Of a stretch of DNA of 64,000 bases, positions 8,087 to 38,421 are shown piece after piece. The stretch lies in the UHGV virus genome UHGV-0021337. One strand, written 5' to 3'. How positions within the stretch are numbered: position 1 is the stretch's first letter; each line of letters begins with the position of its first letter. The stretch comes from a virus. The notes beneath the pieces are model-generated. The model worked only from the letters and a program-made list of their open reading frames with translations. It searched no databases and was not told the DNA's origin. A program made the position numbers and the translations under genes.

Positions 8087-8121
8087 AACGCTAGCAGTAA
8101 AAATGTTAGCGTTTTCTTTTT
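8087..8121 (+). terminator. rho-independent terminator
   Basis: Stem aacgcta / tagcgtt followed by ttctttttg; part of a terminator-promoter cassette. Confidence 0.55.
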
Positions 8122-8148
8122 GATTGTTCTACTTAAATCCTTTATAAT
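8120..8148 (+). promoter_or_regulatory. sigma-A type promoter (TTGATT-17-TATAAT)
   Basis: ttgatt at 8120-8125, a 17-nt spacer and tataat at 8143-8148, about 30 nt upstream of the strong RBS for the gene at 8178. The same cassette recurs at 16295. Confidence 0.65.
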
Positions 8149-8177
8149 AATAGTATAAATAAGGAAGGTAGTCAAGT

Positions 8178-16264: not shown

Positions 16265-16296
16265 AAGTGACTGTTTAATCCAGTCACTTTCTTTTT
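16265..16296 (+). terminator. rho-independent terminator
   Basis: Perfect 10-bp stem aaagtgactg / cagtcacttt, loop tttaat, then ctttttg. Confidence 0.85.
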
Positions 16297-16323
16297 GATT
16301 GTTATGTATAAATATAATATAAT
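16295..16323 (+). promoter_or_regulatory. sigma-A type promoter (TTGATT-17-TATAAT), second copy of the cassette
   Basis: ttgatt at 16295-16300, 17-nt spacer, tataat at 16318-16323. The identical 15-mer ttctttttgattgtt occurs at 8112-8126. Confidence 0.65.
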
Positions 16324-16347
16324 TATAGTGTAGATAGGAGGTAATAT

Positions 16348-22761: not shown

Positions 22762-22790
22762 ATAGGTATATAAACTAAATTACAACGTTT

Positions 22791-29620: not shown

Positions 29621-31681
29621 TTGTCAATGACAAAAGAATTTGAAAAACTAAATATCAAAGGACTAGAAGACCTTAATCAACTCGATGAGAAGTCGCGTAA
29701 ATTAGCCCTTGACATTCTTAAAGAGTATTCGGATACCGGGTACTCTGAAACTATGAATAAAATAGTCTATGATGACTATAAAGAAATTCCTGTTGACATT
29801 GAAACATTCTTACACGACCCAACATATCTTGGTAAGGGTTTAGTTAATCAAGAAGGAAAATTTACCGTGTTTCCTTACTGGGTTGATGTTTTGAAAAAGA
29901 TATTTCCAGATAATGTAACAACCGCTTATAGAACTCTTGTTTTATCAGGAGCTATTGGTCTTGGTAAATCCTTTGTTGCAGTATTATGCATACTATATCA
30001 GCTGTATAGAATGTTATGTTTGAAAGACCCTTATTTACATTATGGGTTACAACCGATTGACAAAATAACATTTTCTGTAATGAACATAACTATGGAAGCA
30101 GCGAAAGGTGTTGCTTGGGACAAATTACAGCAACTTGTTCAATCCAGTCCTTGGTTTATGGCTCATGGAAGAGTTTCTGGTAGGGATACGTTAGAATGGC
30201 AACCATTACCAGGCATTGAACTTATATATGGTTCTCAACCTCGACACGTTATAGGTCGTGCTGTATTTTCTTCTTTTGAGGATGAAATTTCATTTCAGCT
30301 TAATCAAGATGTAGAGAAGCAAAAAGAAAAAGCAACACTTCTAATAAGCTCAATTGATGCTCGTATGCAGTCAAGATTTATGAAAGGTGAATATTTACCT
30401 ACATTGCACATACTTGCATCGTCAAAAAGGACTGACCAGTCATTTCTAGAAAGTTACATCGAGAATAAAAAGAAGAACGAAAGTAAAACTACACTTATAA
30501 TCGATGAACCACAATGGGTAATCAGAACCGACAAAGATAGTCCAAATAAATTCTATGTTGCTGTTGGCAACAAGTTTATGGATTCTGAAGTTCTGCCGTT
30601 AGATGTAAGTGACGCAGACTTAAAAATTTATACAGATAAAGGCTATACGTTACTTCGTGTACCTATGGGATACAGAGAACAATTTGTTGATGATATTGAT
30701 ATCGCATTAACAGACATCGCAGGTATATCAACATCAAATACAATGCGTTATTTATCTGGACCAAGAATACTTGAAGTAAAAGATAGAACTCTGAAAAATC
30801 CGTTTTCAAAAGACATAATAACTGTTGGAGACGGACTTGAAGATAACACACAGTATAGTGATTTCTTCGATATGAATAATGTCGATAAGTCGCTCATGTC
30901 ACACCCGTTGTTTATACATCTAGATATGTCTATATCGGGAGATAAAACTGGTATTGCAGGTGTTTGGATAAAAGGTAAGAAGCCTACAAAAGAAGGACAA
31001 GCTCCATCAAAAGAACTATATTTCCAACTTGCATTCAGCGTAGCAATAAAAGCGCCTAAAGGACATCAGATATCTTTTGAAAAGAATCGTGAGTTTATAC
31101 GCTGGCTGCGAAGTGTAGGATTTAATATAGCAGGAGTATCCAGCGATACATTCCAAAGTGCTCAAATACAGCAACAACTAAAAGCAGAACAGTTTAATTG
31201 CTCTATTATATCCGTTGACCGTGTAGATGCTGAAAGCAGAGTTTGCTTACCTTATCAATATCTGAAGTCAACTATCTATGAACACCGTATAATAATATAT
31301 GACTCTAACTTACTAACTGAAGAGTGGGTAGGACTTGTTCGCGATAATAATGGTCGTGTAGATCATGACCCCAGTGGAATAAATTCGAAAGATACAAGTG
31401 ACGCTGTTTGCGGAGCACTATTCAATGCCTCAAAAAACGCAGAACAGTTTGCATTTGACTTTGGTGAAGACTTAGATGAAATAGTAAGTCATAATGCGAC
31501 AGACGAACGGCAACAAGTAACAATACAACTCGAAGATGAGATGAAGAACTTACTTGACCCTGTTCAAAAATCAAAGAAAGAGCCAGAAAAAAGTCCATTC
31601 AAAGATTTCGGATTTGGAGCTGCTCAACAAACTGGATTCAATCCATATATCTCGCAAGGGATTATGTATTGGGGAGACTAA
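29621..31681 (+). CDS. terL: terminase large subunit
   Basis: Walker A LSGAIGLGKS is present near the N-terminus. The size is 686 aa, the C-terminal half is nuclease-like and acidic, and the portal gene follows immediately. Confidence 0.75.
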   Translation: MSMTKEFEKLNIKGLEDLNQLDEKSRKLALDILKEYSDTGYSETMNKIVYDDYKEIPVDIETFLHDPTYLGKGLVNQEGKFTVFPYWVDVLKKIFPDNVTTAYRTLVLSGAIGLGKSFVAVLCILYQLYRMLCLKDPYLHYGLQPIDKITFSVMNITMEAAKGVAWDKLQQLVQSSPWFMAHGRVSGRDTLEWQPLPGIELIYGSQPRHVIGRAVFSSFEDEISFQLNQDVEKQKEKATLLISSIDARMQSRFMKGEYLPTLHILASSKRTDQSFLESYIENKKKNESKTTLIIDEPQWVIRTDKDSPNKFYVAVGNKFMDSEVLPLDVSDADLKIYTDKGYTLLRVPMGYREQFVDDIDIALTDIAGISTSNTMRYLSGPRILEVKDRTLKNPFSKDIITVGDGLEDNTQYSDFFDMNNVDKSLMSHPLFIHLDMSISGDKTGIAGVWIKGKKPTKEGQAPSKELYFQLAFSVAIKAPKGHQISFEKNREFIRWLRSVGFNIAGVSSDTFQSAQIQQQLKAEQFNCSIISVDRVDAESRVCLPYQYLKSTIYEHRIIIYDSNLLTEEWVGLVRDNNGRVDHDPSGINSKDTSDAVCGALFNASKNAEQFAFDFGEDLDEIVSHNATDERQQVTIQLEDEMKNLLDPVQKSKKEPEKSPFKDFGFGAAQQTGFNPYISQGIMYWGD

Positions 31682-31684
31682 CAC

Positions 31685-33520
31685 ATGGATAATATAAATC
31701 AAACAGACACAGCTTTTGTACAAGATGACTCTGTCTATAATAAGAAAATAGAGGTACAACCTGCTCCAAAACTTGAGATAGGTGCTGATACTGAAAATAA
31801 ATTCTTCGACAATATTATACAAGCTGGACTATCTAACAAACTAGATTTATCCACTTTGGAAAACTTTACAACAGTTTCTCAACGTCGTGATCAACTTTAC
31901 AGTTTGATAGACACTATGTGTCAAGACTCTACAATTGCAGCGATACTTGAAACATACGCAGAAGATGCAACTGAGTATAATGATTCTCAACAAATAGTTT
32001 GGGTTGCCGCAGATGACGACAGCGTTAGAAAGTATGTTGAATATTTGTTGAATAAAATTAACGTAGATAAACATATTTTTGAGTGGGTTATAAATCTTTG
32101 CAAATACGGAGATGTATACTTAAGACTATATCGTAAGTCAGATTATGAAGATGACGCGAAGTTCTTTGATAATTATACAAGTAAAAAATCGTTAAAAGAA
32201 GCAGTTAAAATTCAAGCATATAGCGACGATGATACATATGCTCATTATGTTGAGATGATGCCAAACCCTGCAGAATACTACGAGTTAACAAAACACGGCA
32301 AAACATATGGATACATAAAAGCTCCTGTTATAACTCCTTCTAGTTTTAACACAAACGTAAACAATGTTTTACTGAATAAATTTAGTTACAACTTCAAACA
32401 ACAAGATGTAACAGTTTTTGATGCTACACAATTTGTTCATGCTGCATTGTACGACAATTCTAGCCGCACCCCTGAAGAAGTCAACATTAGTACCGAAGAT
32501 GATTCGAAGAACTATACATATACTGTTAAAAGAGGTCAATCCTTATTTTACAATGTATTTAAGGTGTGGAGAGAATTAAGACTTCTTGAAACTGCAATAC
32601 TATTAAACAGAATAACTAAATCATCTGTTGTTCGTATTGTCCAAGTAGAAGTTGGAGCTATGGATAAGACTATGGTAGGGCCACATCTTATCGGTATTAA
32701 ACAAATGTTTGAACAAAAAGCAGCTCTTGACACCGACAAGAGTATGACCGAATACAACAATCCAGGCCCAACTGAAAATAACGTTTACATTCCAACAAGG
32801 AACGGAGTTGGAGCAATACAAGTTCAGAATGTGGGCGGAGATACTCCAAATATAACAGGGCTTGCAGATTTAGACTACTTTAAGAATAAGTTTTATGGAG
32901 CACTTCGTATCCCTAAACAATTTTTCGGCGAAACCGAAGACGGTGGCGGATTTGATGCAGGAAAATCATTGTCTGTTATATCTTCAAGATATGCTAAGAT
33001 GATTAAACGAATTCAAAACTCAATAATTCAAGCAATAACAGATATGATAAATTTAATGCTTGTTGATGCACAACTTGATTCTTATGTAAATAAATTTACT
33101 ATCAAGATGCTACCTCCGACAACACAAGAAGCACTAGACAGAAGAGACAATACTCGTGAAAAAGTTGGTATTATACAAGATATTATGAATATACTCGGCG
33201 ATGTTGATAATCAAACAGTAAAACTCAAGATACTTAAAACATTGTTGGCTGACACGATTACGGACACAGATGTTGTAAATCTACTTCAGGAAGAAATAGA
33301 CAGAAAAGAACAGGAAGAAGATGAAAGCTTCACTACAACTGAAACAATTGAAGAGACTGAAAATGAAGTTAATCCTGAGCCTGAAAAACGTCGTTCATCT
33401 ATCGATTTAGATAGAGAGTTAGGTCTTACAAATGAACCAGCTGCAGAAGAAATAGAACCTTCTGACGAGATAATACTCCCACAACCAGCGTCATTAGGAC
33501 AAGACTTTACAAACTTGTAA
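31685..33520 (+). CDS. portal protein
   Basis: 611 aa, immediately after terL, with an acidic C-terminal tail. The call is positional and size-based. Confidence 0.55.
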   Translation: MDNINQTDTAFVQDDSVYNKKIEVQPAPKLEIGADTENKFFDNIIQAGLSNKLDLSTLENFTTVSQRRDQLYSLIDTMCQDSTIAAILETYAEDATEYNDSQQIVWVAADDDSVRKYVEYLLNKINVDKHIFEWVINLCKYGDVYLRLYRKSDYEDDAKFFDNYTSKKSLKEAVKIQAYSDDDTYAHYVEMMPNPAEYYELTKHGKTYGYIKAPVITPSSFNTNVNNVLLNKFSYNFKQQDVTVFDATQFVHAALYDNSSRTPEEVNISTEDDSKNYTYTVKRGQSLFYNVFKVWRELRLLETAILLNRITKSSVVRIVQVEVGAMDKTMVGPHLIGIKQMFEQKAALDTDKSMTEYNNPGPTENNVYIPTRNGVGAIQVQNVGGDTPNITGLADLDYFKNKFYGALRIPKQFFGETEDGGGFDAGKSLSVISSRYAKMIKRIQNSIIQAITDMINLMLVDAQLDSYVNKFTIKMLPPTTQEALDRRDNTREKVGIIQDIMNILGDVDNQTVKLKILKTLLADTITDTDVVNLLQEEIDRKEQEEDESFTTTETIEETENEVNPEPEKRRSSIDLDRELGLTNEPAAEEIEPSDEIILPQPASLGQDFTNL

Positions 33521-33673
33521 GCGTAAGTTTAACAGGTTTTATACTAAGGTAAATAATTTATACATGATTAGTTGTTTCGCCTGAGCAACACCTAAGTGCA
33601 AAGGCGAGCAACCTAATTTTATTTAATATTTCAATTTAATTTTTAGCCTGTTATACAGGAAGGAGTTAAAAAC

Positions 33674-34123
33674 ATGGCTTTAACAAAGAATGACTGCTTA
33701 TTACTACTAAGTGAAATTTCTGATAAAGGAATAAACACAGACCAAGTAACTACACAACTTTACGCTCAAAAAGAACTTCCTTTATCAGTTGTAAAATTTA
33801 TAAACGATAATCGCGAGCTAGACTTAACAAAATTCTACAAAAAACTTAGAAAAAGTTACAATGATAAACATTCAAAACTTTACTATAACATTGTAAAAGA
33901 AGTTGATGATACAACTTCAGTATTAACAACTTTAAGCTCGTTACAGCTTCAAATACTGTTATATTCAAAGCAAGCTGATAATATAGAGATGTTTTTGAAA
34001 AATGCTAGACTTTCAGAAATATCATATGTGCTGTTAAACTATGCAAAAACATATGACTTAACTCCGTGTCTCAAAGTGCTCCGGCTCATCAAAGCCGACC
34101 TAAAAGCACTTGAAACACTGTAA
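33674..34123 (+). CDS. hypothetical protein
   Basis: RBS caggaaggagttaaaaacatg. Confidence 0.4.
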   Translation: MALTKNDCLLLLSEISDKGINTDQVTTQLYAQKELPLSVVKFINDNRELDLTKFYKKLRKSYNDKHSKLYYNIVKEVDDTTSVLTTLSSLQLQILLYSKQADNIEMFLKNARLSEISYVLLNYAKTYDLTPCLKVLRLIKADLKALETL

Positions 34124-34203
34124 AAGTAGAAAGATTTTTAGATGTTTCGTCTTTTTGACGAACATATATAATATAACTTACTCATATATGCAATATAGAG
34201 TTA

Positions 34204-34241
34204 ATATGTTATTATATGAGTTTACGAATATAATAACATAT
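34204..34241. repeat. 13-bp perfect inverted repeat atatgttattata-N12-tataataacatat inside an AT-rich non-coding region with nested tatatgag palindromes
   Basis: Read directly in the 34140-34409 gap. Confidence 0.6.
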
Positions 34242-34292
34242 GTTTCTATATAAATATATGAGCTTTATAGCTAAATAATTTATTACATTATT

Positions 34293-34317
34293 ACGCGTAT
34301 GCGTACGCACGTGCGTG
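34293..34317. repeat. 25-nt perfect alternating purine-pyrimidine tract (acgcgtatgcgtacgcacgtgcgtg), Z-DNA-prone GC block in AT-rich DNA
   Basis: Read directly. It contains overlapping ACGCGT, GCGTACGC and CACGTG palindromes. Confidence 0.7.
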
Positions 34318-34499
34318 AGCAAGAAATCTAAACTTCTCGACTTTCTTGAATTTGTTAAGTTACTAGAAGTTTCAAGTACTAAATTACTTATCAATTTAAT
34401 TTAATAGTTTTGTATATGATTATAGCTTCTGGAGTTTTAGGTTATAGGTCTTGGTGGGCCCACCAGTTAGCCAGACTCTATAATCACTCTAGAGGTTGT

Positions 34500-35414
34500 A
34501 TGAATACAGGTGAATTAAAGTATAAATTACTAGAAACAGGTTTGTTTATTGATAATAACTACTTAGACAAGTATGTTCAACATGTGTTAACTCAAAATCA
34601 GCTTGTACATGTTAACTATCAAAGTGAAAAGCATCATATAATTCCACGTTGTTACTTTGTCGAGTTACATAAACCTGTTGATAATTCTTCGGAAAACATT
34701 GTAGATTTAATGCGTTCTGATCATTGTATAGCGCATGTGTTGTTAAGCTTATGTGCAAAATCTTCACGATTACAGCAAGCCAACTATACTGCTGCGTATT
34801 ACACATTGCGAACAAAAGGCAAAACTAAAATGCCGATTGAGGATATCAATAAACTTCAATCTTGGTTGCAAGAACTAAATCTTTCAAAAGCTGTGGACTT
34901 TACAAAGAGTGAACAGTTTAAATTTTTACATACACAACTTAGATGGTATACCGACGGTAAGAGTGAGTTGTATATGTCTATAGATAAAACAGTTCCCGAC
35001 GGTTATTTTCCTGGACGACTCAGAACTAGATTACAAGGTCTAAACAAAGGCACATTCTGGGCCAACGATGGAGTTAAAAACTTTAAAGTTACTTCACTTG
35101 ACAGTTTACCTGAAGGTGTACATGCAGGTATGTTACCAAGTGAATCAAAACACTGCAATTGTGGTCGTTTTGAACGCACACAAGCAACAAGAGATAAGTT
35201 AAGTGCTGCTCGTAAAGCTTATTATGCTAAAAATCCAGGGGTACGAAACGCAGGCAATTTTGTTAAAAGACAAGTCGGAATACTTTCTGGTCGTATCAGT
35301 ATAACTAATGGTGTTAAGAATAAGTTTATATTTAAGGAAGACCTTCCTAAGTGGGAATCAATAGGCTGGTACTGTGGATCAACTCAGGTGTGGCATAAAC
35401 GTAAAGGGAAATAA
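34500..35414 (+). CDS. free-standing HNH homing endonuclease
   Basis: HNH motif …EKHHIIPRCYFVELHKPVDNSSENIVDLMRSDHCIAH… of HNH_3 type, with a Cys/basic C-terminal DNA-binding region. It is inserted between portal and scaffold genes. ATG at 34500 follows tctagaggttgt; the track ORF begins at 34410. Confidence 0.7.
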   Translation: MNTGELKYKLLETGLFIDNNYLDKYVQHVLTQNQLVHVNYQSEKHHIIPRCYFVELHKPVDNSSENIVDLMRSDHCIAHVLLSLCAKSSRLQQANYTAAYYTLRTKGKTKMPIEDINKLQSWLQELNLSKAVDFTKSEQFKFLHTQLRWYTDGKSELYMSIDKTVPDGYFPGRLRTRLQGLNKGTFWANDGVKNFKVTSLDSLPEGVHAGMLPSESKHCNCGRFERTQATRDKLSAARKAYYAKNPGVRNAGNFVKRQVGILSGRISITNGVKNKFIFKEDLPKWESIGWYCGSTQVWHKRKGK

Positions 35415-35416
35415 AC

Positions 35417-36907
35417 ATGAGTGATGTTAGTTTTTCATACAAGTCTTTAAGCGAAGAAGAGAAAAAGTCTCGTAATATTCTTGGTAGACTCTCTGGTGTG
35501 CTTGCAGACTTTAAACATCCCACACGAAATGGGCGCTTATATTCAGAAGCGCTTTGGGATAAAACTCTAAATAGTGACTTATTTAAGGAGCAGATAAAAA
35601 ATCGCTGCGTCTTAGGAGAACTAGGTCACCCAGAAAATAGAGATGAGATAGACATAGAAAAAGTAGCTATTTGTTTATCTGAAACACCTACTAAGATGTC
35701 AGACGGCACAATTCAGGGGATATTTGATATTCTTGATACCCCGAATGGACGCATTCTTAAAACATTGTGTGACTACGGATGCAATATTGGGATTTCTAGC
35801 CGCGGGAACGGTGACGTTGAAACAAACGTGATGGGCGAGGAAGTCGTAGATCCTGACACCTACGACTTAAAGTGCTGGGATGCCGTATTGTTACCAGCCG
35901 TTAAAGCTGCAAGAATGCGTGTGGTCGAATCATTAGAAAATAAAAAGTCATTAAAACAAGCATTAACTGAAGCCTTAAATGATGCTGATGAAGATGCTCG
36001 TAAAGTAATGACTGATACATTAAACAACTTAAAAATTGATATTGAAGAGTCCGAAGCCGAAGAAACAGTTGACGATGTCAAAGTTGAAATGGTAAAAGAA
36101 CTTCAAGAATCGATTAAGGCAAAACAATCTTTAGAAACTGAAAATAGACACTTACAAGAAAAGTTGTCAGTTTGCTATGCAAAAGAAACCAGCCTTGAAG
36201 AAGAATTACAAAGATTTAAATCTACTGTAGTTTCATTGTCTGACAGTGCAAAGAAAGTTAAACCTTTACAAACAAAAGTTGAAGCTTTAACTGAAGCATT
36301 AAATGCAAAAGATGAAGTTATCAACAAGATGAATGTAAGAATTCAAAAACTAACTGAAAGTTTGAAAGCTTCAGAAAGTCAACAAACAAGATTAACTGAA
36401 AATTTATCTGCTAAATCAAAAGAGGCTGATAAACGCTTGAATGAAAGTCTTGCTAAAAACAAAACTTTAATAGAGCAAGTTAAGAAATTTGAAGAAGAAA
36501 AAGCACAACTTAAAGAAAGTTTAGAAAACTTACGCAAAGACGCATCGTTGAAAGCAAATGAGTACAAAGCGTCACTTGAAAAAACTTCTAAATTAGTAGA
36601 ACACTATAAACAAGTTGCTAACAATGTTTCCGATTACTACATAAAATCGAGAGCAGCTGCGTTAGGTATTTCTGCACAAGAAATAAAAAATAGACTTGCT
36701 GAAAGTTACACTTATGAAGATGTTAATAAAGTGTGCGATGATATTCGTGATTATCAACTAAATGTGTCGAAACTACCTTTCGACTTAAAACGTTCAAAAG
36801 TGAAAGTTACTGAGTCAAAAGAAACTCTAGCTCCTCTAAAACAAAATCTCGACGACGAAGTCGACGAACAACTTTTAGGGTTAGCAAACTCAATGATTAA
36901 AAAATAA
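35417..36907 (+). CDS. scaffolding protein, possibly a prohead-protease/scaffold fusion
   Basis: An N-terminal ~170-aa globular domain with GELGHPENRDE and GISSRGNGD (candidate His/Ser) is followed by ~300 aa of coiled coil (heptad-rich E/K/L). It sits directly upstream of the major capsid gene. Confidence 0.5.
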   Translation: MSDVSFSYKSLSEEEKKSRNILGRLSGVLADFKHPTRNGRLYSEALWDKTLNSDLFKEQIKNRCVLGELGHPENRDEIDIEKVAICLSETPTKMSDGTIQGIFDILDTPNGRILKTLCDYGCNIGISSRGNGDVETNVMGEEVVDPDTYDLKCWDAVLLPAVKAARMRVVESLENKKSLKQALTEALNDADEDARKVMTDTLNNLKIDIEESEAEETVDDVKVEMVKELQESIKAKQSLETENRHLQEKLSVCYAKETSLEEELQRFKSTVVSLSDSAKKVKPLQTKVEALTEALNAKDEVINKMNVRIQKLTESLKASESQQTRLTENLSAKSKEADKRLNESLAKNKTLIEQVKKFEEEKAQLKESLENLRKDASLKANEYKASLEKTSKLVEHYKQVANNVSDYYIKSRAAALGISAQEIKNRLAESYTYEDVNKVCDDIRDYQLNVSKLPFDLKRSKVKVTESKETLAPLKQNLDDEVDEQLLGLANSMIKK

Positions 36908-36928: not shown

Positions 36929-38332
36929 ATGGCAACATTGCTTGAAAATTATGCTAAGAAATTAGCGATTTCTGAATCTGTTTATGCCAATGCACATAGC
37001 GGTGCTAAACTTTCTGACACAAAGAAAATAGCAATTGCTACTGTACTTGACAACACATCCAAATTCCTCAACGAAGCTTTTACTAACTCCGTTGGTACTC
37101 AAAGAGCAGATATGGGATTATTTAAACGTTTCTGCTTGAACCTGACTACTGTCACGATGCCAAACCTTATTGCGTCTGACCTTGTTATCGTTCATCCAAT
37201 GACCTCTATGGCCGGATACATTGCATATGTTCAGTATGTAAAAGGAACTAACAAAGGTGAAAGCAAACAAGGCGACCTTATCGCTGATCCTTTCAAACTT
37301 GGAAAAGTTGATGCGAACTATACTGCGGCTAGAGTAGTTGAAACATTCAAAGGTGACGCAACTACTAAAGACTTCACCGTTGCGTGGACTCCTGTTTTTG
37401 ACAAGAAAGATGCTAACGGTAAATACGTTGAACTTAAAGTTTTTGTAAACGGTGTTCAAGAAGCTGATGCTGATATCACAGTTGACAGCGCTACTGGTAA
37501 AATTACACTTAAAAATGCTCCTGGAACAGACGTTGAAGTTCGTATTGCTTATGTTTATGACAACATCGTTATTCCTCAGAACGACCTCCCCATTCTTAAC
37601 GCACAGATGACTTCTATGCCTCTTTTAGCTAAAGCTCGTAGAATCGCTGTTTACTACAGCCAGATCGCTGCTTTCCAAGCTAAACAGGATTATGGATTTG
37701 ATCTTGGTGATCAACTTGCAGAAAAAGCAGTTGCAGAACTTGCTTATGAAATTGATACTGAAATCACAAATCTTCTTATCGAAAATGCAGACGCTGATAC
37801 AACGTTGAGATGGAATAAAGCTCTTCCCACTGGTGTTTCTAAAGCAGAACATTATGCAGGTTTCGGTGAAATAGTTGAAGATGCTGCAAAAGTTATCTAC
37901 AAAAGAACTCAGAAACACATGCCTACTTACATGCTTATCTCTCCTGAAATTAAACCTGTGTTGAAATTTGTTCCTGGATTTACTGCTGCTTCTGTAACAA
38001 CTGTTAATGGTCCTTACTATGCAGGAACGCTTGATGGTTTGAAAGTATTCGTAACTCCTAACATTGAAGATAATAAATTTGTTCTCGGTGTTAATGGAAA
38101 CGATATGATGACCAGCGCAGCTGTTTATGCTCCTTATATGGCCATCGTTCCTACTCAACTTCTACAGTACGCTGACGGCGGAACAAGCCAGGGCTTCAGC
38201 ACAATGTACGATTTGAAAATCCTTAACAAAGACCTTCTTGTTAAAGGCGAAATCTACACTGACGTAACTGAAATCGTTTCCAACGTAGTTGGGTCGAGAG
38301 AAGTTGCTAAAGGCGACAACGGTCAAGTTTAA
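36929..38332 (+). CDS. major capsid protein (with Ig-like insertion)
   Basis: 467 aa, following the scaffold and followed by a strong terminator. There is an internal BIG2/Ig-like segment (…TVAWTPVFDKKDANGKYVELKVFVNGVQEADADITVDSATGKITLKNAPGTDVEV…). The highest-expression signals in the window are here (RBS aagaaggaaaaatacactt, terminator). Confidence 0.65.
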   Translation: MATLLENYAKKLAISESVYANAHSGAKLSDTKKIAIATVLDNTSKFLNEAFTNSVGTQRADMGLFKRFCLNLTTVTMPNLIASDLVIVHPMTSMAGYIAYVQYVKGTNKGESKQGDLIADPFKLGKVDANYTAARVVETFKGDATTKDFTVAWTPVFDKKDANGKYVELKVFVNGVQEADADITVDSATGKITLKNAPGTDVEVRIAYVYDNIVIPQNDLPILNAQMTSMPLLAKARRIAVYYSQIAAFQAKQDYGFDLGDQLAEKAVAELAYEIDTEITNLLIENADADTTLRWNKALPTGVSKAEHYAGFGEIVEDAAKVIYKRTQKHMPTYMLISPEIKPVLKFVPGFTAASVTTVNGPYYAGTLDGLKVFVTPNIEDNKFVLGVNGNDMMTSAAVYAPYMAIVPTQLLQYADGGTSQGFSTMYDLKILNKDLLVKGEIYTDVTEIVSNVVGSREVAKGDNGQV

Positions 38333-38352: not shown

Positions 38353-38386
38353 AAGAGCAAGTAAAATTTACTTGCTCTTTTTTGGT
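38353..38386 (+). terminator. rho-independent terminator after the capsid gene
   Basis: Perfect 11-bp stem aagagcaagta / tacttgctctt, loop aaatt, then ttttgg. Confidence 0.85.
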
Positions 38387-38393
38387 TATTTCT

Positions 38394-38421
38394 TGTATTC
38401 TTAGTATAATTCTTGTATAAT
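38394..38421 (+). promoter_or_regulatory. sigma-A type promoter (TTGTAT-16-TATAAT)
   Basis: ttgtat at 38394-38399 and tataat at 38416-38421, upstream of the gene at 38459. Confidence 0.5.

What the first reader, a model, noticed from the sequence alone, without database searches (positions are those of the whole stretch)
34140..34500. AT-rich non-coding region before the free-standing HNH gene with nested palindromes and a perfect 25-nt alternating purine-pyrimidine GC tract
A 270-bp gap between the 33674..34123 gene and the HNH endonuclease is about 85% AT. It contains a 13-bp perfect inverted repeat (atatgttattata N12 tataataacatat, 34204-34241) nested among three tatatgag / ctcatata copies. 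It also contains a striking island, acgcgtatgcgtacgcacgtgcgtg (34293-34317), that is perfectly (RY)n and Z-DNA-prone, with overlapping ACGCGT, GCGTACGC and CACGTG palindromes. Such a structure next to a homing endonuclease could be the remnant of a homing/insertion junction. It could also be a replication or packaging-related structured site, or the HNH gene's regulatory region. It is unlike every other intergenic region in the window.
Basis: seen in the sequence. Interest (0 to 1): 0.55.

Follow-up and report, generated by a model that had tools for sequence, protein, structure and literature searches.

The report
Conserved hairpin and purine-pyrimidine tract, phage head-gene control region
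The odd AT-rich gap in front of the HNH gene is not a scar left by that mobile gene: it is an older control region in front of the phage's head genes, and one part of it, a GC-rich alternating purine-pyrimidine tract, has kept its alternation but not its sequence across related gut phages.

Summary
The described features are real and beyond chance. There is a 14-bp perfect inverted repeat nested in a three-tier hairpin of about 32 bp (34181-34262), and a 26-nt perfect alternating purine-pyrimidine (RY) tract (34292-34317). About 0.0007 RY runs of that length are expected in the window.

The homing-junction reading is refuted. Every HNH-less relative that could be fetched (149-aa neighbour gene 64-98% identical) keeps the same gap. 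The HNH cassette starts only at 34403/34404, 86 nt downstream of the RY tract, and it arrived with a foreign 5' part of the protease gene.

The gap is the region upstream of the protease/scaffold/capsid genes. A family-wide promoter-like box (ACTAAATTA, 34378) lies about 60 nt before the start codon in HNH-less relatives.

Two parts are specific to one clade and always occur together:
- A covarying hairpin with a conserved GA...GA apical loop, always more stable on the sense strand. It is probably an RNA element.
- The RY tract (19-28 nt). It differs between lineages only by transitions and even-length indels, is no better a hairpin than RY-preserving shuffles, and is the most Z-DNA-prone site in the 64 kb.

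The function of these two parts is inferred, not shown.

The parts
33674..34123 (+). 149-aa gene of unknown function downstream of the portal gene. It was used as the anchor for finding relatives.
   Evidence: ORF. No Pfam or PHROG match. 517 homologues found.
34142..34165 (+). H1: a short hairpin just after the stop codon (TGTTTCGTC-TTTTT-GACGAACA), with no U-run after it.
   Evidence: Fold. A hairpin of different sequence sits at the same place in L060, L064, L001 and L067. The scan found no terminator-like site.
34181..34262 (+). H2: a three-tier long hairpin. Outer tier CTCATATAT/ATATATGAG, middle tier ATATAGAG/UUUCUAUA, inner tier 14 bp at 34204-34217/34228-34241. The apical loop GAGTTTACGA (34218-34227) fits the consensus GA-R-Y...R-Y-GA.
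   Evidence: Covariation of the inner helix: 92.6% of cells paired, 12 of 15 pairs changed on both sides, 0 of 500 shuffles as high. The sense strand is more stable in 9 of 9 lineages. The covariance model finds a single copy in the window.
34292..34317 (.). GC-rich alternating purine-pyrimidine tract TACGCGTATGCGTACGCACGTGCGTG.
   Evidence: chance; present in all lineages of at least 64% identity, absent from about 80 at 63% or below; transitions only; not selected as a hairpin; most Z-prone site in the window.
34320..34348 (.). Sequence-conserved inverted box CAAGAAA ... TTTCTTG(AAT), lying between the RY tract and the promoter-like box. It is a candidate protein-binding site.
   Evidence: Read from the spacers aligned: AAGAAA ... 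TT(T/C)TTGAA recurs in the window, L060, L064, L001 and L067. It was not tested further.
34378..34395 (+). Promoter-like box ACTAAATTACTTATCAAT, a candidate late promoter of the head operon.
   Evidence: ACTAAATTW occurs 12 times in the window against 5.2 +/- 2.0 expected; 0 of 100 shuffles reach 12. Copies lie upstream of genes at 22774, 25648, 28754 and 38763. CTAAATT is present in 47 of 72 distinct protease-upstream regions of relatives. It lies 58-63 nt before the ATG in HNH-less close relatives.
34404..35416 (+). HNH homing-endonuclease cassette: a leader hairpin (34410-34509, which pairs with the GAGG at 34492-34495) and the ORF 34500-35414.
   Evidence: Left junction. PHROG homing endonuclease / HNH matches, E = 2e-14 and 6e-9. 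Fold. Identical cassette in L073-75.
35417..35850 (+). 5' part of the protease/scaffold gene, about 150 codons, of foreign ancestry. It is the probable co-conversion tract that came in with the HNH. The right end is approximate.
   Evidence: Sliding identity to L060 is 42-62% over the first ~150 aa and mostly 75-95% afterwards (one dip to 62%). The N-terminus is closer to L078, at 65%.

Best explanation
The gap is an old, composite cis-acting control region between the portal/149-aa genes and the protease-scaffold-capsid operon. The HNH gene is a recent passenger in its 5' UTR.

Proposed working (steps marked shown or inferred):
1. Transcripts of the upstream genes run into the gap, because no terminator-like site is found there (shown only as absence in a consensus scan). 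There they fold into H1 and the ~30-bp hairpin H2, whose apex carries a conserved GA...GA motif around a covarying R-Y pair.
   - Shown: the structure, its covariation and its sense-strand bias.
   - Inferred: that it acts as RNA, either as a processing or stability site of the RNase III type or as a protein-binding hairpin, separating the fate of the upstream message from that of the head-gene message.
2. A single-element promoter-like box, (A/G)CTAAATT, about 60 nt before the start codon, drives the head genes.
   - Shown: conservation and placement.
   - Inferred: promoter activity and late timing.
3. Between hairpin and promoter, usually 60 nt upstream of the box, lies a 19-28-nt GC-rich RY tract. 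Its alternation is what is preserved, not its sequence or its hairpin potential (shown).
   - Inferred: heavy transcription of the head operon drives negative supercoils upstream. The tract is the cheapest place to flip to left-handed Z-DNA (estimated threshold sigma about -0.043, taking up about 5 turns). It would then act as a torsional buffer or insulator, or as a shape-read protein site.
4. The HNH cassette inserted after 34403 and replaced about 35 nt of 5' UTR (shown). Its own ribosome-binding site is predicted to be paired in a leader hairpin (inferred).
For: - Ancestral, not HNH-derived. All HNH-less relatives at 64-91% identity of the 149-aa protein that span the site keep a 267-362-bp gap with the same blocks.
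- Junction. Homology with L060 is exact through ...ACTAAATTACTTATCAATTTAAT and then stops. The protease N-terminus is mosaic.
- H2 hairpin. It is present in 9 of 9 lineages with 25-35 pairs even where the sequence cannot be aligned. The apical loop fits GA-R-Y-N-R-Y-GA in all lineages. The sense strand is more stable in 9 of 9 and over the whole gap in all 9 sequences folded. G-U pairs number about 12 on the sense strand against 4 on the antisense strand in distinct lineages.
- RY tract. It is present in every lineage of at least 64% identity and in none of about 80 distinct loci at 63% or below. It is the only run longer than 15 nt in those loci.
- RY substitutions. Alignable tracts differ only by transitions (window vs L064: 5 ts, 0 tv). 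The single difference in the whole 376-nt gap between the window and the L073-75 assemblies is A>G at 34309, inside the tract. Flanking spacer and third codon positions have ts:tv of about 1:1. Length differences are multiples of 2.
- RY tract as a structure. It is not more stable or more palindromic than RY-preserving shuffles in 7 of 9 sequences.
- Z-DNA propensity. It has the lowest B-Z threshold in the 64 kb, using the published energies (PMC3024258, Table 1).
- Spacing. RY end to box is 60, 60, 62, 60, 60, 45 and 66 nt. Box to ATG is 58-63 nt.
- Promoter-like box..
Against: - There are no expression data, so no transcription start, RNA end or processing site is known. The phage is uncultivated.
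- In L078 the RY tract lies before the hairpin and 188 nt from the box. A fixed promoter-proximal position is therefore not obligatory.
- The G-U strand asymmetry is modest. It would equally fit a hairpin in sense-strand single-stranded DNA.
- The torsional-buffer model does not explain the conserved hairpin loop. The RNA model does not explain the RY tract. The account therefore needs two mechanisms.
- The module occurs once in 64 kb and not at the other ACTAAATTA boxes. This fits a unique site, such as an origin, as well as it fits a special promoter.
- The B-Z threshold of about -0.043 is above typical unconstrained supercoiling, so Z formation would need transcription-driven stress.
Confidence: 0.45

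Rival explanations
1. H2, with or without the RY tract, is a free-standing small non-coding RNA gene or a protein-binding RNA operator. For example, it could be a site for a phage translational repressor or an antitermination-type factor, rather than a processing or stability element of the read-through message.
For: - Conserved apical loop with a covarying stem.
- Sense-strand bias.
- The block ATATAACTTACTCATATATG just 5' of the stem is identical in the window and L001.
Against: - No sigma-70-like promoter on the + strand inside the gap and no terminator.
- No Rfam family matches.
- There is only one copy, so it is not a repeated operator.
Confidence: 0.15
2. The module is a DNA-level site for replication initiation, a lytic origin. 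The AT-rich hairpin region would be the unwinding or cruciform element and the GC-rich RY tract an initiator or topoisomerase landmark.
For: - Unique in 64 kb.
- 80% AT over 34124-34292.
- Structure-prone and next to a strongly transcribed unit.
- Clade-specific co-occurrence of its two parts in either order.
Against: - No iterons: direct repeats are two-copy, 75% matches.
- No GC-skew inflection at 34 kb.
- The hairpin shows a sense-strand bias.
- No initiator gene is adjacent. The neighbours are portal, protease and capsid genes.
Confidence: 0.12
3. The RY tract is a neutral, self-renewing dinucleotide microsatellite, (CG/CA/TG/TA)n kept alternating by slippage. It has no function, and only the hairpin and the promoter matter.
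For: - Length changes are in steps of 2 nt.
- Its position can shift (L078).
Against: - It is not a repeat of one unit.
- Transversions are as common as transitions in the neighbouring spacer and at third codon positions, yet none is seen in any tract.
- It is kept in all lineages down to 64% protein identity, where the flanks can no longer be aligned.
- Z-forming tracts are reported to be deletion hot spots in bacteria (cited in PMC13174585), so persistence argues for selection.
Confidence: 0.08
4. The site is a packaging start (pac) or a physical genome end.
For: - It lies 2.5 kb downstream of the large terminase gene.
- Several short contigs stop inside the gap (L062, L063, L066, L077).
- One 124-kb contig (L029) ends 45 nt after the stop codon of the homologous gene.
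Against: - Contigs of 62, 93, 129 and 143 kb run through it in mid-contig.
- Breaks are expected at AT-rich hairpins, and where strains with and without insertions coexist.
- The portal is T4-type, which, from general knowledge, usually goes with headful packaging without a fixed site.
Confidence: 0.04
5. The palindromes and the RY tract are the scar or target of HNH homing.
For: They lie close to the HNH gene. The locus is an insertion hot spot in the family.
Against: - They are present in all HNH-less relatives.
- The junction lies 86 nt downstream.
- The co-converted DNA lies on the other side, in the protease gene.
Confidence: 0.03

Closest known systems
Z-DNA-forming (CG)n or (CA)n tracts upstream of active promoters (twin-domain supercoiling; Rahmouni and Wells 1989, from memory; energetics in PMC3024258)
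   Same: An uninterrupted RY alternation rich in CG and CA/TG steps, placed upstream of a presumably strong promoter. It has the lowest computed B-Z cost in the region.
   Different: The known cases are engineered inserts in plasmids or eukaryotic promoters. Here it is a natural phage tract of mixed steps, 19-28 nt long, with comparative evidence that the alternation itself is kept. Z formation was not demonstrated.
Intercistronic RNase III processing hairpins of phage T7 (R1.1 type) and of Bacillus phage SP82 (own knowledge)
   Same: A long imperfect hairpin of 25-35 bp between genes on the sense strand, with no U-run, in a Firmicutes-type phage.
   Different: No cleavage data exist. The apex carries a conserved GA...GA motif that is not a described RNase III feature. 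No Rfam model matches.
T4 late promoters (a single -10-like element, TATAAATA; own knowledge)
   Same: A short AT-rich box with no -35 partner, recurring before structural genes and conserved across a phage family that has a T4-type portal, prohead protease and Gp23-type capsid protein.
   Different: The consensus is (A/G)CTAAATT(A/T), not TATAAATA. The box-to-ATG distance is about 60 nt. Neither a sigma factor nor transcription starts are known.
Free-standing homing endonucleases of T4-like phages (Seg and Mob proteins, I-TevI), with co-conversion of flanks and hairpin-masked ribosome-binding sites (own knowledge)
   Same: - An HNH gene sits between two conserved genes in one strain only.
- The left junction is sharp and the downstream flank is foreign.
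- The RBS is predicted to be paired in a leader hairpin.
- A 39%-identical homologue lies at the same locus in a distant relative.
   Different: The cleavage site and the homing itself are untested. The candidate promoter lies upstream of the masking hairpin, so the T4 trick of a late start inside the hairpin does not obviously apply.
phi29 late promoter A3 with the activator p4 bound to an upstream inverted repeat (own knowledge)
   Same: A late promoter without a -35 element, preceded by a sequence-conserved inverted repeat (CAAGAAA ... TTTCTTG, 34320-34348).
   Different: The motifs are unrelated and no activator has been identified. This is an analogy only.

Membership tests
Homing-endonuclease insertion junction or scar | The sequence is absent from alleles that lack the endonuclease. 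| tested here: not met
   The hairpin, the RY tract and the promoter box are present in all HNH-less relatives examined: L060/61, L064/65, L001, L072, L067-70, L071 and L078.
Homing-endonuclease insertion junction or scar | The break in homology coincides with the feature. | tested here: not met
   Homology with L060 ends at 34403/34404, 86 nt downstream of the RY tract.
Z-DNA-forming sequence | Uninterrupted purine-pyrimidine alternation of at least 8-12 bp, rich in CG and CA/TG steps. | tested here: met
   26 nt with 6 CG, 4 CA/TG and 3 TA steps. Relatives have 19-28 nt.
Z-DNA-forming sequence | Lowest B-Z transition cost in its topological neighbourhood. | tested here: met
   A two-state estimate with the energies of PMC3024258 gives a threshold sigma of about -0.043. 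The next sites in 64 kb are at -0.049 or worse and are much shorter.
Z-DNA-forming sequence | It adopts the left-handed form under physiological or transcription-driven supercoiling. | not testable with these tools
   This needs topoisomer gels, chemical probing or Z-specific antibody.
Intrinsic (rho-independent) terminator | A GC-rich hairpin followed by a U-run. | tested here: not met
   There are 0 terminator-like sites in 33400-35600. H1 and H2 are followed by ATATA... and GCTTTATAGC.
RNase III-type intercistronic processing hairpin | A sense-strand duplex of about 20 bp or more between cistrons. | tested here: met
   Prediction gives 25-35 pairs in 9 of 9 lineages, with the sense strand more stable and covariation.
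RNase III-type intercistronic processing hairpin | Cleavage by RNase III. | not testable with these tools
   This needs in-vitro cleavage or mapping of RNA ends.
Any curated RNA family (Rfam 15) | A match at or near the gathering score. | tested here: not met
   The best matches in 33000-36000 have E values above 1 and scores far below the gathering scores.
Phage replication origin | Iterons or repeated initiator sites. | tested here: not met
   There are only two-copy direct repeats at 75% identity.
Phage replication origin | An AT-rich unwinding element, and uniqueness in the genome. | tested here: inconclusive
   The region 34124-34292 is 80% AT and occurs once in 64 kb. Neither point is specific to origins.
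Phage replication origin | A turn in the strand-composition skew. | tested here: not met
   Cumulative GC skew rises smoothly through 34 kb.
pac/cos site or genome terminus | Genome or contig ends, or read starts, map to it. | tested here: inconclusive
   Long contigs traverse it. Several short contigs and one 124-kb contig end in or near it. Read-level data are not available.
Sigma-70-type promoter | -35 and -10 hexamers 16-18 nt apart. | tested here: not met
   There is no + strand candidate between 34124 and 34499.
T4-type late promoter | A single conserved AT-rich box upstream of late genes. | tested here: met
   The box is enriched in the window and sits before structural genes. It is present in 47 of 72 related upstream regions.
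T4-type late promoter | The consensus TATAAATA, read by a gp55-type sigma factor. | tested here: not met
   The conserved box is CTAAATT. The TATAAATA at 34249-34256 lies inside the H2 stem and is not kept in L001. The sigma factor was not searched for.
Miniature inverted-repeat mobile element | Several copies in the genome. | tested here: not met
   The 17-mer of the left end and the hairpin model each hit only this site in 64 kb.

The most novel reading that the evidence does not exclude
The RY tract is a genuine, selected B-to-Z switch. With the neighbouring cruciform-capable hairpin it would form a two-part, supercoil-responsive module that insulates or tunes the most heavily transcribed promoter of the phage. 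As far as I know, that would be the first natural case in a bacterial virus where evolution can be seen preserving Z-forming potential itself: only transitions, only even-length indels, sequence free to drift.
Probability: 0.2. Interest if true: 0.75.

Novelty: new variant of a known kind. Interest (0 to 1): 0.42.

Why it matters
- **Functional non-B DNA in a bacterial virus.** Conserved non-coding elements are usually recognised by conserved sequence or by covarying base pairs. Here a third signature appears: a physical property of the duplex, strict purine-pyrimidine alternation with GC content, is kept while the letters change. If it reflects Z-DNA or a related shape-dependent function, it gives a natural and compact test case for whether left-handed DNA does anything in prokaryotic systems. 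That question has stayed largely at the level of engineered plasmids.
- **Homing endonucleases.** The case is a clean worked example of how a homing endonuclease settles into the 5' UTR of an essential, highly expressed operon and drags in a foreign gene start.
- **Annotation.** It supplies a candidate late-promoter box for a large family of uncultivated gut and rumen phages.

Tried and rejected
- DNA similarity to deposited phages: no match with megablast or blastn. The closest isolates by capsid protein are Bacillus and Listeria phages at about 31-32% identity.
- tRNA/tmRNA scan: none. Rfam: nothing credible.
- Exact 17-mer TAACTTACTCATATATG in IMG/VR: eight other hits, all unrelated coding sequence.
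- Protease protein as a probe in IMG/VR: no relatives by the word filter.
- The 149-aa protein alone in GTDB genomes: nothing. As an alignment it found six phage-sized contigs binned with Clostridia, Lachnospiraceae, Acholeplasmatales, Firmicutes and one Methanobrevibacter MAG, all distant and without the RY tract. This is weak host evidence.
- RY tract as an RNA hairpin or selected palindrome: rejected. Its MFE and longest palindrome are within the range of RY-preserving shuffles for 7 of 9 sequences, and it shows no consistent strand bias.
- RY tract as a cluster or decoy of restriction sites: rejected. ACGCGT is not unusual in the window (4 against 7 expected), and the 4-mers avoided genome-wide (GATC, CATG) are not in the tract.
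- Sigma-70 promoter or terminator in the gap: none.
- MITE-like element: single copy.
Full report
**Setting**

- The window is part of an uncultivated phage of about 143 kb. It has no nucleotide match among deposited phages.
- The genes around the finding are:
  - large terminase, 29621-31681;
  - T4-type portal, 31685-33520 (Pfam Portal_T4, E = 2e-41);
  - a 149-aa gene of unknown function, 33674-34123;
  - the HNH gene;
  - a prohead protease/scaffold gene, 35417-36907 (Peptidase_S77);
  - the major capsid gene, 36929-38332. Its homologue in relatives hits Pfam Gp23.
- The phage also carries anaerobic ribonucleotide reductase genes.
- Relatives come from gut and rumen metagenomes.
- The HNH ORF matches PHROG homing endonuclease / HNH families. 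Its likely start is ATG 34500, with GAGG at 34492-34495. The non-coding gap is therefore 34124-34499, 376 bp.

**The observation**

- The perfect inverted repeat has 14-nt arms (34204-34217 and 34228-34241) and a 10-nt loop.
- The three TATATGAG/CTCATATA copies and a TATAGAG/TTTCTATA pair nest around it. Together they make one three-tier hairpin of about 32 pairs, 34181-34262.
- The segment 34130-34330 folds 6.4 standard deviations better than dinucleotide shuffles.
- The alternating purine-pyrimidine (RY) run is 26 nt long (34292-34317). The next longest in the window is 15 nt. About 0.0007 runs of this length are expected, and simulated sequences reach 21 nt at most.
- AT content is 71% for the gap and 80% for its first 170 nt, not 85%.

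**Relatives without the HNH gene**

- The 149-aa protein was the probe. Relatives came from IMG/VR, JGI/ENA/Logan metagenomes and GTDB.
- Only three further assemblies of essentially the same phage (L073-75) carry the HNH.
- All other close relatives go straight from a 267-362-bp gap into the protease gene. These are L060/61 (91%), L064/65 (83%), L001 and L072 (83%), L067-70 (77%), L071 (75%) and L078 (64%).
- Their gaps align with the window block by block:
  - a hairpin after the stop codon;
  - the block TAAYTTACTCRTATAT;
  - the long hairpin;
  - ATATATGAGC;
  - an RY tract;
  - an AAGAAA...TTYTTGAA box;
  - ACTAAATTA.

**Where the HNH cassette really sits**

- Identity between the window and L060 is perfect through GTACTAAATTACTTATCAATTTAAT and stops at 34403/34404.
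- On the other side, the first ~150 residues of the window's protease are only 42-62% identical to L060. The rest is mostly 75-95% identical, with one dip to 62%. The N-terminus resembles the distant L078 more, at 65%.
- The cassette therefore replaced about 35 nt of 5' UTR and arrived with a foreign start of the protease gene. This is the co-conversion pattern expected of homing (inference from established knowledge of T4 Seg/Mob endonucleases).
- A 39%-identical HNH lies at the same locus in a distant relative, L076.
- Many relatives carry other small genes here, so the spot is an insertion hot spot.
- In the window the HNH ribosome-binding site is predicted to be paired inside a leader hairpin, 34410-34509.

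**The promoter-like box**

- ACTAAATTW occurs 12 times in the window against 5.2 expected.
- Ten of the twelve copies are on the + strand. Several lie just upstream of genes, at 22774, 25648, 28754, 34378 and 38763.
- In relatives, CTAAATT is present in 47 of 72 distinct 200-nt regions upstream of the protease gene. About 3 would be expected by chance from base composition (my estimate). It mostly lies 45-108 nt before the ATG.
- In the HNH-less close relatives the distance to the ATG is 58-63 nt.
- No sigma-70-type promoter and no terminator-like site were found in the gap.
- I read the box as the family's late-type promoter. This is an analogy with single-element late promoters such as T4's. 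Its activity is inferred.

**The long hairpin (H2)**

- All nine lineages have a 25-35-pair hairpin at this place, even where the sequences cannot be aligned (L067, L071, L078).
- For the inner helix plus apex:
  - 92.6% of cells pair;
  - 12 of 15 pairs show changes on both sides;
  - no shuffle out of 500 reaches the observed covariation;
  - slid controls collapse.
- The apical loop fits GA-R-Y-(3-5 nt)-R-Y-GA in every lineage, and the R-Y positions covary between G-C and A-U.
- From general RNA knowledge, 5'-GA/3'-AG can form tandem sheared pairs. The complementary strand would offer only U/C mismatches.
- The sense strand folds more stably than the antisense strand in 9 of 9 lineages. The differences are large where G-U pairs are used: L064, -38.2 against -21.7; L067, -31.7 against -20.5.
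- This leans towards a structure in the sense transcript. A hairpin in sense-strand single-stranded DNA cannot be excluded.
- A covariance model built from it finds one copy in the window. Among 100 further loci it finds only L063 and L066, which are clade members.

**The RY tract**

- Every lineage with at least 64% identity in the 149-aa protein has exactly one tract of 19-28 nt. It is 44-71% GC in an AT-rich setting.
- None of about 80 distinct loci at 63% identity or below has one. Background runs in all loci are 17 nt or shorter.
- The sequences differ: for example, CGCGTATGCGCATACGCG in L060, ACACGTACACATACGTACATACGCGTA in L067 and GCATGTGCGCACATGCGTATGTACA in L071.
- Where the tracts can be aligned, all differences are transitions (window vs L064: 5 to 0), and length differences are even. 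The adjacent 60-nt spacer and third codon positions show transitions and transversions in about equal numbers.
- The only difference in the whole gap between the window and the three sister assemblies is A>G at 34309, inside the tract.
- The tracts are not better hairpins or palindromes than shuffles that keep the alternation and composition. L060 and L071 are exceptions for palindrome length. They show no consistent strand bias.
- What is preserved is therefore the alternation itself, which points to the DNA duplex rather than to RNA pairing.
- With the published B-Z energies (PMC3024258, Table 1), a two-state estimate makes this the most Z-susceptible site in the 64 kb. The threshold is sigma about -0.043 in a 5-kb domain, with about 5 turns absorbed. 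The next sites are at -0.049 or worse and are 8-16 bp long.
- The tract ends 60, 60, 62, 60, 60, 45 and 66 nt before the promoter-like box in seven sequences. In L078 it lies before the hairpin, 188 nt away.

**Interpretation**

- Shown:
  - the gap is ancestral;
  - it holds a family-wide promoter-like box;
  - it holds a clade-specific pair of elements, the hairpin with conserved apex and the RY tract, that always occur together.
- Inferred:
  - the hairpin acts in the read-through message, as a processing, stability or protein-binding site;
  - the RY tract acts as a duplex element that responds to the negative supercoiling generated behind polymerases leaving the head-gene promoter (twin-domain model, own knowledge), or is read by shape.
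- This two-layer account is my best reading, at about 0.45.
- Its weak points:
  - there are no expression data;
  - the order of the two elements is swapped in L078;
  - the module occurs once in 64 kb.
- Rivals:
  - an independent small RNA or RNA operator (0.15);
  - a replication origin (0.12; no iterons, no skew turn);
  - a neutral dinucleotide microsatellite (0.08; argued against and by persistence to 64% identity);
  - a packaging site or terminus (0.04; long contigs traverse it);
  - an HNH scar or target (0.03).

**Comparison with known systems, and novelty**

- The parts resemble known kinds:
  - intercistronic RNase III-type hairpins;
  - single-box late promoters;
  - Z-forming tracts upstream of promoters;
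  - free-standing homing endonucleases with co-conversion.
- None of the membership tests that could be run places the hairpin or the RY tract in a described family (Rfam).
- I found no description of a phage element conserved as an RY alternation in two literature searches.
- I rate it a new variant of a known kind: a phage intergenic control region with an unusual, property-conserved DNA element.
- Interest is moderate. The comparative signature is clean and unusual, but the function is unproven and the phage is uncultivated.

Noticed in passing
L159 2736-3000 (relative at 63% identity; contig k141_506696, 149.7 kb): The protease gene is interrupted by an in-frame TGA. The TGA aligns with a tryptophan of the window's protease (window ...YSEALWDKT, L159 ...YDDIL*EKVF). 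This suggests TGA is read as Trp in that phage or its host. A related contig is binned with an Acholeplasmatales MAG (L162).
   Followed up: no
window, whole 64 kb: GATC (43 observed against 175 expected, ratio 0.25) and CATG (65 against 169, ratio 0.38) are strongly under-represented. GTAC is at 0.63. This looks like restriction-site avoidance.
   Followed up: no
window 22774, 25648, 28754, 38763 (also 42873, 44877, 48563 and 49053 inside ORFs): Further copies of the ACTAAATTW box lie on the + strand, several just upstream of structural or lysis-region genes. They are candidate late promoters of this phage family.
   Followed up: partly
L001 670-4029: The large terminase ORF of this relative is 1119 aa, against 686 aa in the window. 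That suggests an intein or another insertion in the terminase gene.
   Followed up: no
L076 1636-1875; also L051 and L052 gaps: Some relatives carry a small ribosomal-protein-S21-like gene (Pfam Ribosomal_S21) between the 149-aa gene and the protease gene. Others carry a lysine-rich small ORF (L080, L159) or unrelated genes of 200-340 aa. The locus is an insertion hot spot.
   Followed up: partly
L062, L063, L066, L077, L029 and several of L016-L054: Many metagenome contigs end inside or just after this gap. They include a 124-kb contig that stops 45 nt after the stop codon of the 149-aa homologue. The cause is probably assembly breaks at AT-rich hairpins or at strain variation, but it was not tested against read data.
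   Followed up: partly
window 35417-35850: The first ~150 codons of the protease/scaffold gene are mosaic. They are far more divergent from the nearest relative than the rest of the gene, and closer to a distant lineage.
   Followed up: yes
L003, L027, L036 gaps (distant relatives): A different conserved box, GTTTGTCAACTA, sits where the window's clade has the RY tract and AAGAAA box. It is surrounded by TATATA-rich hairpins.
   Followed up: no
window 8100-8177, 16290-16347, 38359-38420: Canonical hairpin-plus-U terminators are followed by good TTGAyT-N17-TATAAT promoters in the early and middle regions. The phage therefore also uses host-type signals, which contrasts with the gap studied here.
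   Followed up: no
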